This document shows positions 22,752 to 31,316 of a stretch of 64,000 nucleotides of DNA, piece after piece. The translations under genes and the position numbers were made by a program. The stretch's first letter is position 1. Every line of letters begins with the position of its first letter. Under the pieces are notes generated by a model, which was not told the DNA's origin, did no database searches, and saw only the letters and a program-made list of their open reading frames with translations. The stretch comes from the human T2T-CHM13v2.0 reference genome, Homo sapiens. The stretch lies in assembly GCF_009914755.1 (NCBI RefSeq), contig NC_060933.1; one strand, 5' to 3'.

Positions 22752-24909
22752 ATAAGTACAGCAAATGGTTTAAAACTTGCGCTAGGCTGTCTGGAAAACT
22801 TTGTTTTTTTTTTTTTTTATTATCGGTAATATTTGGAAGTGGAATTGCAGAACATGCTCCTGAACATGAAGAACCTTAAAAAAATATTTGGAATTGCAAC
22901 CCGAAAAAGACGATTTTGTTTACAATAGACTTTCCTCTTGTGGGGGAGTCTAAGATATACCATGCATGTTTTGACTTTTTAATCGATGTACTTGAATATT
23001 CATTGAGAAAGTGGACGTTTCTGTAAAACCTGAAAAGAGCATCTTAATAAGAGATTAGCCTGCAAATGCTGTCATTTATTCCTTTTTAGGATTGTAATAT
23101 TTTGTAGGAATTAAGTCTAACAGGGAAAAAACTGGCAGACATTACATCATACTGCATCAACTTAGATGTTAGCAGCTTACAGTTTTGCCGACCTTGGCAG
23201 CTTCAGAGTTAAAATGCTAATTAACTTCCATGCAGTATAGGGACAGAGCGCCTGTAGGCGAAACTAAATTAATAACCTGCCCTAACTACTAAGGGAATAA
23301 CACTTGAACACCCCTGTCAGGGGCTTCGTTTCTCATAGTAGAAAGTTCTTGCTTAAAGACAAAACTCAGCCAGTCATTTAGGTGATCTTGAAAATGATTC
23401 CTCTCTGGATGCTAATATTTTACATTATTTAATTTGCCATCAGGTTCCCTGTTTTTTATTTTCCTTAATTTGGTAAACACCTAGGAAGCCTTTATTTCTA
23501 GAATGGGCTATGATTCTAATGTAATGATGATATTCCAGACCGATGAGCAAAACATAATGTACCCATATTTTATCACACATAAAAATGTTTACACAACATT
23601 GCACATTTTTTTTTGGCTTGGAGTAAATCTCTATCAGAGAGCTTTCTTTCTTGATTAATCAAACCATGAGATTAGAATTTTTAAAATGTCTTCCTCTTCC
23701 TTCTCAAATCACTTTTATTTTTCTTTCAGTGGCATCTCCCCGCTGTCAGCCTCAGCCCTCTCCTACCAAAATCTCTTTCGAAATAAGTTCCAATAAACGC
23801 CAGTGGCCATGTTTGGAAATTTAGATTATTGCAGGATAACCAAGGGTAGCTTTCAGCAGTTCTCCTAAACTGTCATGAAAAGTTTGCCGTAGCTCAGTGC
23901 TGTTCTGCCCGCGGGCTCAAGGGTGGGTTGGTTCTTCACACACAGGGCACGCACATGGGTTCATGAACTCACTGTGCATCATGATTCAGTTGCGCCTCAG
24001 TTAATCCTACACTTGGTGTGCCCTTCCAAAAAACAAGCTCCGGATTCCTTTGGTCAGATGCTGTACCGTGTTTCAGATTCAACTTTAATCTGCTTTTGTG
24101 AGAAGCCTTTGTGAATAAAACGTTGTTACTTAAATCAAAATCCTTGGGTCTTGTAATGGAAACTGCCGTTTGGCTTAAATAAACATATAAATGAGTTACT
24201 TATAGAAAGGCATGCTAGAGTAATTGACCAATCAACTGGCAAAATACAACAACAAAAAAAGTCACTAGAGGTCACTCTTACTATTGAATAAACAGGGCTT
24301 CAAAAAGACCTTCCTGGAGAAAAGCAAAGCAATGAAATCTGAGTGAGACCCTGCCACCACCTTTCCTGTTTTTGTTGCATAGTTGTGATTACTTTTTATT
24401 CTCAGGATTAGTTGTATTGATAGTTATTTTGCTTGGAATCCAGTGGAAGGATTACAAAGCCCATAGAAATTAAGCTCTTCTCGTTTATAGTGAACATTCT
24501 TTTTGGAGGAGGGGAGGGCAGGGACAGATATTCCAAATGGACTCAGCACCAGACGGGACTCTCGCGAGTTGCTGAGTGACACGTAAAATTTCAATACTAC
24601 TACTGTGGGTGTTTTCAGTCTTCTTTCGTTGATGAAACTTAGTATCCTCATATCTAATAAATTTTACTAATTTTAAATTACCTTTTAGATCAAGTAATTC
24701 TTCCAGATAAAACTATGTAACTGTAATAATTATACCACCTTCAATACCAAGAAGAAAGTCAATAAGGACATCTAAAAGTTTCCTTCTCATGTAGACACCA
24801 TGAGTTGCTCACGTTATTCACAGCTGGTTTTCGAGAAGCACATTGGCCACCCACGAAGGCAGCCTGTTGATGATGGCATGAAATGGCTCTTCATGGGAAG
24901 AGCTCTCTA

Positions 24910-25217
24910 GGCCGGGCACAGTGGCTCGTGTCTGTAATCCCAGCACTTTGGGAGGCCGAGGTGGGTGGATCACCTGAGGTCAGGAGTTCGAGACCAGCTT
25001 GGCCACCATGGTGAAACCCTGTCTCTACTAAAAATACAAAAATTAGCCGGGCGTGGTGGCAGGCATCTGTAATTCCAGCTGCTCGGGAGGCTGAGGCAGG
25101 AGAATCGCTTGAACCTGGGAGATGGAGGTTGCAGTGAGCCGAGATCCCACCATAACACTCCAGCCTGGGCAACAAGAGCAAAACACAAAACTCCGTCTCA
25201 AAAAAAAAAAAAAAAAA
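24910..25217 (+). mobile_element. AluSq/Sp
   Basis: Full Alu; TSD agctctcta. Confidence 0.9.
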
Positions 25218-25866
25218 GCTCTCTAAACATTTGGCATTGTGGGGATTATGTGCAGTTTATCTGAATGTTATTTGACCCGACAAATACATGGAAAGCTTTG
25301 TTAGGAAGATTCTGCATGAAGGGAAATATTTTCCTAACTTCAGTGCCCATAGACTTGCAGTGAGTGAAAGGTCACTTACTGCTCTCATTGAGTCCCTGAA
25401 AACAGCAGGAAGCATCAAGAGAAAGATTGAACTCTGGGCACTGATCCCAGGGATACACAAACAAATGGCTGGGCAGATTTTGCAGAAATTCCTGTAATTG
25501 GTAAAATGCTGAGTAATAGCCTTTGATGTAACTTTTCAGTGGGTTAATTTATTCATTACTTAGCCTAAAACACTTTTAATTTTAATTGCCTCAATTTTTT
25601 CCCCTAAATGGTTATGTTTTGCAAGTTCGCCAGCCAGCCTGGGGAAAGACGGGTAAGCCTACTATAGAGTGTGTGTGGGTTAGTTAGGAAACTCACTTAG
25701 ATGTGAAATGTGTCAGGAAAGAGATCTCACAGAGTGTAGGAATAATTATTTTTACAGATGTTTCATTTTGGACCTTTTAGTAATACCATTTAAAGAGAGA
25801 TTCTGCAGATGAGTAACAGACTCTTAATTTTAGTGTCAAATGGTACTCTATAAAAAATGGAGTTCA

Positions 25867-26122
25867 GGCCGGGCGCGGTGGCTCACACCTGTAATCCCAG
25901 CACTTTGGGAGGGTGAGGTGGGTGGATCACTTGAGGTCTGGAGTTTGAAACCAGCCTGGACAACACGGTGAAACCCCGTCTCTACTAAAAATATGAAAAA
26001 ATTTCAGGGCATGGTGGCAGGTGCCTGTGAGGAGGCAGTGAGCTGAGATCGTGCCACTGCACTCCAGCCTGGGTGACAGAGTGACACTCTGTCTCAAAAA
26101 AATAACAAAAAAAACCCAAAAA
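25867..26122 (+). mobile_element. AluS with an internal right-arm deletion
   Basis: gcctgtgaggaggcagtgagc junction lacks about 50 nt of the right arm. Confidence 0.85.
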
Positions 26123-29957: not shown

Positions 29958-29965
29958 CTCATGAT
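29950..29965. other. Candidate breakpoint of the deletion removing exons 2-9
   Basis: An LTR ends just short of its terminus and abuts a 67-bp Alu 5' stub, followed by only the 3' part of a MER58-like element. Confidence 0.7.
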
Positions 29966-30024
29966 CCGCCCGCCTTGGCCTCCCAAAGTGCTGGGTTTAC
30001 AGGCGTGAGCCACCGCGCCCAGCC
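29958..30024 (-). mobile_element. Alu 5' stub (first ~67 nt only)
   Basis: ctcatgatccgcccgccttggcctcccaaagtgctgggtttacaggcgtgagccaccgcgcccagcc; no right arm or A tail. Confidence 0.9.
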
Positions 30025-30145
30025 CTGCTTTGTATTTTTAAAGGGTTATAACAAGAAGGACATGCAACAGAGACCAGGTGTGACCCACAAAACCAAAAGT
30101 GTTTACTATCTGCGTTTTACAGAAAACCTTTGCAGACTCCTGACT
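30025..30145 (+). mobile_element. MER58-like (hAT-Charlie) 3' part
   Basis: agagaccaggtgtgacccacaaaaccaaaagtgtttactatctgcgttttacagaaaacctttgcagactcctg matches the MER58 terminus. Confidence 0.7.
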
Positions 30146-31316
30146 TAGACAAATGCCTTATGATTTTATTCTGAATTAATATGACCCTTTCTACAAACAG
30201 TTGTCTTTAAATAAAAAGATTTTACAATTATTGTGTTTTCTTTAACTAGAGTGTGTACTTTCATCCTTTTCCTTACTTTTCAAACTTAGAGTTCCATTAT
30301 TAGGTTATATATTGTAACTCAAGAGGGTGGGAGTAAGTTCAAGACACTACTTTCCTATATGCTTGGACTGGTGTGGAGTAATACTGCTTACGTCAAAGTC
30401 AGGCACTCACCACTGCTTCTTATAAGTACTGTTCTTGTTTCACAAAACAAGCCCACATAGTAAAGGGAAGTGATGTCATAAGCATTGCCATTTGTAATTT
30501 AGGTGAAATTAGCTGACGATTGTAGTGAAACTTTTAATATTTAACTTCTACTATTGGAAATAAATGTCTATTTTATCTCTTTCTATTCATAGAACATTCT
30601 GGACTGCAAATTTTTATCCTTATGTACCCTAACAGTGTGTTATGTCCTGTTACTTTTTGTGTTGTTGTTAACATTAGAATTTAATCTTTAGTTATATATT
30701 TGACTAAAGTACCTAATACCAAAGAAAGTGTTACTAGAAAAGCAAATCTAGGTATTTCCACCCAGTCAGTATAAAAAAATACGTTTTTAAATACTCCCAA
30801 ATATACATACATCGCAACACACAAAAACACCTATAGGGTAGATATTTAACATATTTTAGATAAATGGTAGTACACAATTATATTTTCAGGTAGCATTTTT
30901 CACACTTCACAGCATATCCTAAATAAAATTTGGGCTATGATTTCATTTATTTTAATTTAACCTCCACTTTAATTTTTTTCACTTATACTACATAATGCTA
31001 AAATGCATGCTTATTTCTTAGATGAGATTTCACAAAAGAAGCCAAACCTCTTTTCACTTGGTTGGGAAATAATTCCTGTTATAGGAATTTTAGATCTGAA
31101 TTTTCCCCCGTAATTTCTTATTCTGAATTCCAGGTATTATCTTAAATTTGATCAGTTCTAACCTTGCCCCTTCTCACCTCTCTAATGAATGGTGAAGCTC
31201 ATCGCATCATACCGATGTCCATAAACAAGCGGGAGCAGCAGTCTTCATATAGTAAATACTGTGGAATAGTTTTGTCATAGTTGTTGCTTTTGTCCTATTT
31301 TTGTCTTCATATTCAG

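What the first reader, a model, noticed from the sequence alone, without database searches (positions are those of the whole stretch)
22752..31316. In-frame deletion joins the CNTNAP3 signal-peptide exon to exon ~10, predicting a domain-stripped mini-Caspr3
Seen: exon 1 and the exon encoding the end of LamG2 are only 8.6 kb apart, with no discoidin or LamG1 exons between them. Exon 1 ends in phase 1 (85 nt) and exon 10 begins in phase 1, so a 1>10 splice would be in frame (C+GC=Arg). Known: Caspr3 is signal peptide, F5/8C discoidin, LamG x2, EGF, fibrinogen-like, LamG/EGF/LamG, TM. Inference: this duplicate lost the discoidin, LamG1 and most of LamG2 while keeping the frame, like truncated segmental-duplication paralogs such as SRGAP2C. 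With an intact donor, exons 1+10+11+12+13 give 211 codons before the TGA.
Basis: partly seen in the sequence, partly recalled or inferred. Interest (0 to 1): 0.8.

Follow-up and report, generated by a model that had tools for sequence, protein, structure and literature searches.

The report
Exon-deleted CNTNAP3 duplicate, a dead pseudogene
This is a human-specific extra copy of the brain gene CNTNAP3 that lost exons 2 to 9 in one large deletion, and although the loss keeps the reading frame, a broken splice site and a stop codon make it an ordinary, already annotated pseudogene rather than a new mini-protein gene.

Summary
CNTNAP3 exon 1 (22667-22751) and exon 10 (31317-31488) are separated by an 8,565-nt hybrid intron. 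No trace of exons 2-9 lies between them. A 1>10 splice would be in frame (C+GC=Arg), and exons 1+10+11+12+13 give exactly 211 codons before a TGA. Against the full-length CNTNAP3 at chr9:39.09-39.30 Mb, 129,474 bp are missing. The junction is blunt, at 29959|29960, with 1 nt of microhomology.

In this copy alone the exon-1 donor is AT instead of GT (GT in 3 of 3 other copies), and no good in-phase cryptic donor exists. The exon-13 TGA is also private to this copy. Keeping the frame is unremarkable: 8 of 12 possible exon-1 skips would do so.

The locus is already annotated as an unprocessed pseudogene: RefSeq CNTNAP3P4 and GENCODE BX005040.4. One published table lists it as human-expanded, nearly fixed and not expressed in brain.

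New here are the breakpoint, the retained promoter and exon 1, and the donor lesion.

The parts
21967..22666 (+). Promoter CpG island and 5' UTR of the CNTNAP3 copy
   Evidence: The 800-nt span from ATG-700 to ATG+100 (21967-22766; this row lists only the part upstream of the ATG) holds 75 CpG, obs/exp 0.85, GC 66.5%. The three full-length copies have 77, 76 and 76 CpG in the same span. No CpG decay is visible.
22667..22751 (+). Exon 1 coding part (signal peptide, 28 codons + 1 nt)
   Evidence: 100% identical to residues 1-28 of human CNTNAP3 P0006.
22752..22757 (+). Destroyed 5' splice site: ATAAGT instead of GTAAGT (G>A at +1, at a CpG)
   Evidence: CAC|GTAAGT in 3 of 3 other genomic copies, CAC|ATAAGT here. 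It is listed as a private CpG transition of this copy in the 4-way alignment.
22752..29959 (+). Remnant of intron 1 (5' 7.2 kb)
   Evidence: Window 22000-29959, which contains this remnant, is collinear with chr9:39294210-39302148(-) at 98%. 99.2% over the last 260 nt before the junction.
29959..29960 (+). Deletion junction; 1-nt (T) microhomology, no homology between the two parental breakpoints
   Evidence: Three-way comparison of the window with the parental intron 1 and intron 9 sides. blastn of the two parental sides against each other finds nothing.
29960..30024 (-). About 65-nt stump of an antisense Alu cut by the breakpoint
   Evidence: Window 29958-30024 matches Alu copies genome-wide. 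The parent holds a full Alu at chr9:39164670-39164969. I recognised the Alu motif by eye.
29960..31316 (+). Remnant of intron 9 (3' 1.36 kb)
   Evidence: Window 29958-32000, which contains this remnant, is collinear with chr9:39162683-39164745(-) at 98% and with the 43.52 and 78.99 Mb copies at 99%.
31317..31488 (+). Exon 10 (172 nt; tail of LamG2 plus linker); splice sites AG/GT intact
   Evidence: No private site of this copy falls inside the exon, and the only differences from any copy there are one c39-only and two c78-only sites. RefSeq CNTNAP3P4 exon 31315-31488.
36953..37059 (+). Exon 11 (107 nt; EGF-like 1); splice sites intact
   Evidence: 100% identical to residues 550-585. Pfam EGF E 2.6e-07. 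Boundaries.
40702..40821 (+). Exon 12 (120 nt; start of the fibrinogen-like region); splice sites intact; not in the RefSeq rows for this window
48240..48443 (+). Exon 13 (204 nt) with a private in-frame TGA at 48389-48391; splice sites intact
   Evidence: TGAGGG here versus TGCGAG in 3 of 3 other copies. Position.
63222..63378 (+). Exon 14 (157 nt); the copy continues beyond the window
   Evidence: 100% identical to residues 694-746. Further exons of this copy lie at chr9:41370637-41394851, outside the window.

Best explanation
The interval is the hybrid intron of a fourth, internally deleted copy of the CNTNAP3 gene. That copy sits inside the chromosome 9 pericentromeric segmental duplications. 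One non-homologous break-and-join event fused intron 1 to intron 9 and removed exons 2-9 (464 codons: discoidin, LamG1 and three quarters of LamG2). The copy is a non-coding relic, an unprocessed pseudogene. Its CpG-island promoter and signal-peptide exon look intact. Its exon-1 splice donor, however, is mutated from GT to AT, so a transcript starting here cannot be joined to exon 10. Such a transcript would read through into the intron and stop after 70 codons. Even if it were spliced, the message would end at a private TGA in exon 13, with exon junctions further downstream. Shown: the structure, the junction, the two lesions and the absence of exons 2-9. Inferred: lack of function, the repair mechanism (end joining) and the age (a few million years).
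For: Structure: window 22000-29959 matches chr9:39294210-39302148(-), and 29958-32000 matches chr9:39162683-39164745(-). 129,474 bp are missing between them, and that stretch holds exons 2-9. Junction: 1-nt microhomology, and the two parental breakpoints share no similarity. Duplicate context: upstream pieces 4260-8902 and 15461-17326 occur in the same four places at 98-99%. The copy continues to residues 1147-1226 at chr9:41394612-41394851. Lesions: donor AT here versus GT in 3 of 3 other copies. The read-through ORF is 70 codons, ending at a TAA at 22877. Four exonic GTs are all phase 0, and the two in-phase intronic GTs have poor context. The TGA is present in 1 of 4 copies. Domain loss. 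No discoidin-less form was found: all 37 of 37 proteins sharing the signal peptide carry PF00754. Of the 385 proteins found, the best 120 were listed; the four that are 100% identical to exon 10 are 413, 944, 1,255 and 1,207 residues long, and none is near 211. Literature: Soto et al., PMC11463660, Table S1 (rows seen). It lists BX005040.4/ENSG00000283541 at chr9:41323308-41373546 as an unprocessed_pseudogene of family ID_245, non-syntenic with chimpanzee, 'Nearly-Fixed' (98.96% of 2,504 genomes), brain expression 'No' and fetal brain expression 'No'.
Against: The promoter CpG island shows no decay (75 CpG versus 76-77 in the other copies), so transcription from it is not excluded. All five downstream exons in the window keep AG/GT splice sites. 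Exon 13 of the working CNTNAP3 copy also has 4 private changes against 5 here, so faster decay is not demonstrated. CNTNAP3P4 appears in one RNA-seq list of differentially expressed genes (PMC11682284, passages seen), although this copy has no private base inside exon 10, so short reads there are ambiguous. The expression table used a gene model that starts at exon 10 and covers brain data sets only. The donor state is known for one haplotype only.
Confidence: 0.88

Rival explanations
1. One reading: the copy is spliced exon 1>10 and makes a 211-residue secreted mini-Caspr3 (signal peptide, LamG2 tail, EGF, half of the fibrinogen-like region), acting like a truncated duplicate such as SRGAP2C.
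For: The splice would be in frame and gives 211 codons. The promoter CpG island is intact. Splice sites of exons 10-14 are intact. The EGF exon is 100% conserved.
Against: The donor +1 is G>A in this copy only. No good in-phase substitute donor exists. Only 29 of the 124 residues of the LamG2 Pfam match are kept, and the product ends inside the next domain. 0 of 37 signal-peptide-bearing proteins lack the discoidin domain. No brain expression in Soto et al. Table S1. Frame-keeping is expected in 8 of 12 possible skips.
Confidence: 0.02
2. The locus is transcribed from its preserved CpG-island promoter as a non-coding, unspliced or cryptically spliced RNA. That RNA would be either a human-specific lncRNA or a nonsense-mediated-decay substrate with no protein role.
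For: The CpG island is as dense as in the working copies. Only 12 private substitutions fall in the 4 kb around exon 1. CNTNAP3P4 appears in one differential-expression list.
Against: The RefSeq rows supplied for this window show no transcript model. Brain expression is 'No' in Soto et al.. The RNA-seq listing can be explained by multi-mapping, because this copy has no private base inside exon 10. The methylation state was not tested.
Confidence: 0.1
3. The junction was not an intragenic deletion. It joined two different paralogs: a CNTNAP3-like 5' piece fused to a CNTNAP3B-like 3' piece, for example by deletion across two neighbouring copies.
For: 5' of the junction the copy is nearest the 39 Mb copy: 0.86% divergence at the promoter and 1.46% in intron 1, versus 1.95-2.11% to the 43 Mb copy. 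3' of the junction it is nearest the 43 and 79 Mb copies: 0.81% and 0.70%, versus 1.51% to the 39 Mb copy. Private-site counts switch from 36:20 to 10:61 (this copy: 39 Mb copy), Fisher p 4.5e-9.
Against: The unrooted topology is the same on both sides, ((this copy, 39 Mb),(43 Mb, 79 Mb)), and the distance to the 39 Mb copy is the same (1.46% versus 1.51%). The two sides lie 130 kb apart in full-length copies, so different gene-conversion histories would give the same picture. No outgroup was available to root the trees.
Confidence: 0.3
4. The junction is an assembly artefact: a false join or collapse of two CNTNAP3 copies.
For: The region is highly duplicated, and Soto et al. flag it as corrected relative to hg38.
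Against: Both flanks differ from every other assembled copy. There are 36 private sites in the 4.1 kb to the left and 10 in the 4.7 kb to the right, with best identities of 98.5% and 99.3%. A false join of reads from other copies would be near 100% identical to them. Paralog-specific copy number in 2,504 genomes supports a real locus. No reads were examined here.
Confidence: 0.02

Closest known systems
CNTNAP3P4 (RefSeq) / BX005040.4, ENSG00000283541 (GENCODE): annotated unprocessed pseudogene at this place
   Same: Same locus. RefSeq exons 31315-31488 and 36953-37059 are exons 10 and 11 found here. The GENCODE/CAT model chr9:41323308-41373546 starts at window 31308, which is exon 10.
   Different: Neither model includes the exon 1 and promoter lying 8.6 kb upstream. 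In this window RefSeq lists only exons 10 and 11, not exons 12-14. The deletion junction and the donor lesion were not found in print in my searches.
CNTNAP3 (39.09-39.30 Mb), CNTNAP3B (43.44-43.68 Mb), CNTNAP3P2 (78.83-79.07 Mb): the full-length members of the same duplicated family
   Same: Collinear genomic copies at 97-99% identity, including upstream sequence, promoter, introns and exons.
   Different: They keep exons 2-9, with 129.5 kb (39 Mb copy) or 150.3 kb (43 and 79 Mb copies) between the two breakpoints. They also keep a GT donor at exon 1 and TGC at the exon-13 site.
SRGAP2C-type truncated duplicate genes (recalled from the literature; named among known cases in PMC11463660, passage seen)
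   Same: A human-lineage partial copy of a neural gene inside a segmental duplication, keeping the promoter and first exon.
   Different: SRGAP2C is expressed and has an open frame encoding a foldable interaction domain (recalled). This copy has a dead donor and a premature stop, retains no complete domain except one EGF, and has no recorded brain expression.

Membership tests
Unprocessed (duplicated) pseudogene | Genomic copy of a parent gene that keeps introns and flanks, collinear with the parent | tested here: met
   Collinear with the 39 Mb copy on both sides of the junction and upstream, at 98-99%. Exons 10-14 lie in order with their introns.
Unprocessed (duplicated) pseudogene | Disabling lesions relative to the parent | tested here: met
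   Loss of exons 2-9. Exon-1 donor GT>AT. Private TGA in exon 13.
Unprocessed (duplicated) pseudogene | No protein product or productive mRNA | not testable with these tools
   Indirect evidence only: brain expression 'No' in Soto et al. Table S1, and 0 of 37 signal-peptide proteins lack the discoidin domain.
Functional truncated duplicate (SRGAP2C-like) | Intact splice sites that give an open reading frame | tested here: not met
   Exon-1 donor is ATAAGT. Exonic GTs are all phase 0, and the in-phase intronic GTs are poor. TGA after 211 hypothetical codons.
Functional truncated duplicate (SRGAP2C-like) | Retains a complete foldable domain able to bind the parent protein or its partners | tested here: inconclusive
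   LamG2 keeps 29 of 124 Pfam-matched residues. One whole EGF is kept. The fibrinogen-like region is cut by the TGA. No fold or binding test was run.
Functional truncated duplicate (SRGAP2C-like) | Expressed in the relevant tissue | not testable with these tools
   The published table says no brain expression at TPM>=1. No read data are available here.
Caspr/CNTNAP protein family | N-terminal F5/8 type C (discoidin) domain followed by LamG domains | tested here: not met
   No match to residues 29-492 in the interval or elsewhere in the window above chance. Pfam places the discoidin domain at 46-174 in the parent.

The most novel reading that the evidence does not exclude
The donor G>A (22752) and the exon-13 TGA might be recent or polymorphic. 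Some human haplotypes of this nearly fixed, human-specific copy would then still splice exon 1 to exon 10 and secrete a discoidin-less Caspr3 fragment. Alternatively, the orphan but undecayed CpG-island promoter might drive a human-specific non-coding RNA next to the chr9 pericentromere.
Probability: 0.04. Interest if true: 0.5.

Novelty: already known. Interest (0 to 1): 0.12.

Why it matters
It matters little for biology and modestly for annotation. The locus is one more decayed member of the CNTNAP3 duplication family, which is already catalogued as human-expanded. Three details are useful. First, both public gene models start at exon 10 and miss the retained promoter and signal-peptide exon 8.6 kb upstream. 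Second, the copy is a whole-gene duplicate with one 129.5-kb internal loss and a defined blunt junction, which gives a unique tag for genotyping this paralog. Third, this copy has no private base inside exon 10, so short-read 'expression' of CNTNAP3P4 should be treated as ambiguous. The case also shows that an in-frame exon loss in a gene dominated by phase-1 introns is not evidence of selection.

Tried and rejected
I replaced it with tblastn of CNTNAP3 against the window.
3. Own-genome DNA searches with 20-kb queries were swamped by interspersed repeats. One returned only repeat hits and the other returned nothing. Shorter repeat-poor queries worked.
Rooted or long-range trees of the four copies were therefore not made. 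Three smaller requests gave the flanks used instead.
5. A search with the 28-residue signal peptide was too short for the tool. The 70-residue read-through ORF was used instead.
6. The Alu-Alu recombination model for the deletion was rejected. The intron-1 breakpoint shares no similarity with the intron-9 breakpoint.
7. Other content in the hybrid intron: 0 ORFs of 90 codons or more and 0 Rfam matches in 20000-38000.
8. The 4-way alignment of the promoter region was distorted for the 79 Mb copy by a 1.1-kb gap, so its numbers (84% identity, 553 singletons) were discarded.
9. Literature: six searches found no description of the exon 2-9 deletion. Supplements of PMC13639854, a pangenome and long-read cDNA survey of duplicated genes, could not be read and may bear on expression.
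10. No structure prediction or complex prediction was run, because no intact product is predicted.
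Full report
**Observation**

The window is human chr9:41,292,001-41,356,000 of T2T-CHM13. An ATG at 22667 opens 85 coding bases that translate to a 28-residue stretch identical to the start of human CNTNAP3 (P0006, 1,288 residues). The next CNTNAP3 exon on the strand is 31317-31488, preceded by AG at 31315-31316. It matches residues 493-550.

tblastn of the whole protein against both strands of the window finds only exons 1, 10, 11 (36953-37059), 12 (40702-40821), 13 (48240-48443) and 14 (63222-63378). 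Nothing from residues 29-492 appears, except a chance-level 15-residue hit far downstream at 59266-59310 (E 0.89).

The same protein run against 144 kb of the full-length copy at chr9:39.16-39.30 Mb finds ten exons. Exact junction mapping gives exons 2-9 as 111+194+148+204+185+144+262+144 = 1,392 nt, or 464 codons. Exon 1 ends in phase 1 and exon 10 opens with GC, so C+GC reads Arg. Joining exons 1, 10, 11, 12 and 13 gives 211 codons before the TGA at 48389-48391.

**Anatomy of the loss**

A DNA search of the window's own genome shows two collinear blocks. Window 22000-29959 matches chr9:39294210-39302148 (minus strand, 98%). Window 29958-32000 matches chr9:39162683-39164745 (98%).

A three-way comparison puts the junction at 29959|29960, with a single shared T. 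129,474 bp are absent relative to that copy. About 150.3 kb are absent relative to the copies at 43.5-43.7 Mb and 78.8-79.0 Mb.

The two parental breakpoints share no similarity. The intron-9 side cuts an antisense Alu and leaves a stump of about 65 nt, but the intron-1 side is not an Alu. This looks like end joining, not Alu-Alu recombination (inference). No other place in the genome matched across the junction.

**Context**

Upstream pieces of the window (4260-8902 and 15461-17326) occur in the same four places at 98-99% identity. Exons of this copy continue outside the window to at least residues 1147-1226 at chr9:41394612-41394851. The locus is therefore a whole-gene copy of the CNTNAP3 duplication block carrying one internal loss.

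The RefSeq rows supplied with the finding name only exons 10 and 11 (CNTNAP3P4). Table S1 of Soto et al. (PMC11463660; rows seen, methods passages) lists the following for this locus:
- the GENCODE/CAT model BX005040.4 (ENSG00000283541), an unprocessed pseudogene at chr9:41323308-41373546, which is window 31308 onward;
- family ID_245, shared with CNTNAP3, CNTNAP3B and CNTNAP3P2;
- non-syntenic with chimpanzee (chr9:41280000-41382000) and 'Expanded in humans';
- paralog copy number 'Nearly-Fixed', present in 98.96% of 2,504 genomes;
- brain expression 'No' and fetal brain expression 'No'.

Neither gene model includes exon 1.

**Coding potential**

The natural donor of exon 1 reads CAC|GTAAGT in 3 of 3 other copies and CAC|ATAAGT here. 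The change is G>A at +1, at a CpG. An AT donor paired with an AG acceptor is not productively spliced; this rests on established knowledge of splicing, not on a test here.

From the ATG the unspliced frame runs 70 codons to a TAA at 22877. The four GTs inside exon 1 are all phase 0. The GTs at 22756, 22768 and 22789 are phase 2. The only phase-1 GTs before the stop are ttt|GTTTTT (22803) and gaa|GTGGAA (22839), both far from the donor consensus.

The TGA in exon 13 is private to this copy: TGAGGG here versus TGCGAG in the other three. That exon has 5 private changes here. The working 39 Mb copy has 4, so faster decay is not shown.

The hypothetical product would keep 29 of the 124 residues of the LamG2 Pfam match (398-521 in the parent), one whole EGF, and part of the fibrinogen-like region.

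Two database searches found no such protein. All 37 of 37 proteins sharing the signal peptide carry the discoidin family PF00754. The four proteins 100% identical to exon 10 are 413, 944, 1,255 and 1,207 residues long (the best 120 of 385 were listed). This is weak negative evidence.

**Evidence on the other side**

The promoter CpG island is undecayed: 75 CpG in 800 nt, obs/exp 0.85, against 76-77 in the other copies. Exons 10-14 keep AG/GT boundaries.

CNTNAP3P4 appears in one RNA-seq list of differentially expressed genes (PMC11682284, passages seen). However, this copy has no private base inside exon 10, so short reads there cannot be assigned to it.

**Frame-keeping**

Intron phases 1-13 are 1,1,0,1,1,0,0,1,1,2,1,1,1. 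Of the 12 possible joins of exon 1 to exons 3-14, 8 keep the frame. The in-frame property therefore carries no weight.

**Ancestry**

The copy is a mosaic.
- Around exon 1 it is nearest the 39 Mb copy: 0.86% divergence versus 1.95% to the 43 Mb copy.
- In the intron-1 remnant: 1.46% to the 39 Mb copy versus 2.11% (43 Mb) and 1.96% (79 Mb).
- 3' of the junction it is nearest the 43 and 79 Mb copies: 0.81% and 0.70% versus 1.51% to the 39 Mb copy.

Private-site counts (this copy: 39 Mb copy) switch from 36:20 to 10:61, Fisher p 4.5e-9. Yet the unrooted topology is the same on both sides.

Either two paralogs were fused, or gene conversion differs between places that lie 130 kb apart in intact copies. 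No outgroup could be reached, so this stays open (note).

Divergences of 0.7-1.5% suggest an age of a few million years (using assumed rates recalled from the literature). That fits the 'human-expanded' label in Soto et al.

These private sites on both flanks also argue against a false assembly join.

**Verdict**

This is an internally deleted, human-specific CNTNAP3 duplicate, already annotated as an unprocessed pseudogene. A dead exon-1 donor and a private stop codon make a mini-Caspr3 very unlikely in this haplotype.

My six literature searches did not find three things in print: the exact junction, the retained promoter and exon 1, and the donor lesion. Supplements of PMC13639854 could not be read and might hold long-read expression data for this family.

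Noticed in passing
window 40702-40821, 48240-48443, 63222-63378; also chr9:41370637-41394851 outside the window: CNTNAP3 exons 12, 13 and 14, and further exons up to residues 1147-1226, belong to the same copy. They are absent from the RefSeq rows given for CNTNAP3P4, which list only exons 10 and 11.
   Followed up: partly
window 48235-48242: Exon 13 has a tandem CAGCAG acceptor in all four copies. The two acceptors would add or drop one codon. This fits the one-residue difference between the CNTNAP3 isoform 1 and CNTNAP3B proteins at this point.
   Followed up: no
window 23519-24640 (equivalent in chr9:78832508-78832518): The 79 Mb copy (CNTNAP3P2) lacks about 1.1 kb of intron 1 that the other three copies have. 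This gap distorted the first 4-way alignment.
   Followed up: no
between the two breakpoints in the full-length copies: The interval corresponding to the deletion is 129.5 kb in the 39 Mb copy but 150.3 kb in the 43 and 79 Mb copies. The paralogs therefore differ by about 21 kb of insertion or deletion somewhere in introns 1-9.
   Followed up: no
window 25830-34700: Nearest-paralog relations and private-site counts change sharply across the junction (Fisher p 4.5e-9). This could reflect a fusion of two paralogs or uneven gene conversion.
   Followed up: partly
window 1-22000: The sampled parts of the upstream 22 kb (4260-8902 and 15461-17326) are four-copy segmental duplication at 98-99% identity, so the duplication block extends well beyond the gene copy on the 5' side.
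   Followed up: partly
protein P0001 (413 residues, from a 1,413-nt assembled contig): This database protein runs from LamG1 through exon 11 and then reads into intron 11. It suggests an intron-retaining or truncated transcript from one of the full-length copies, not from this one.
   Followed up: no
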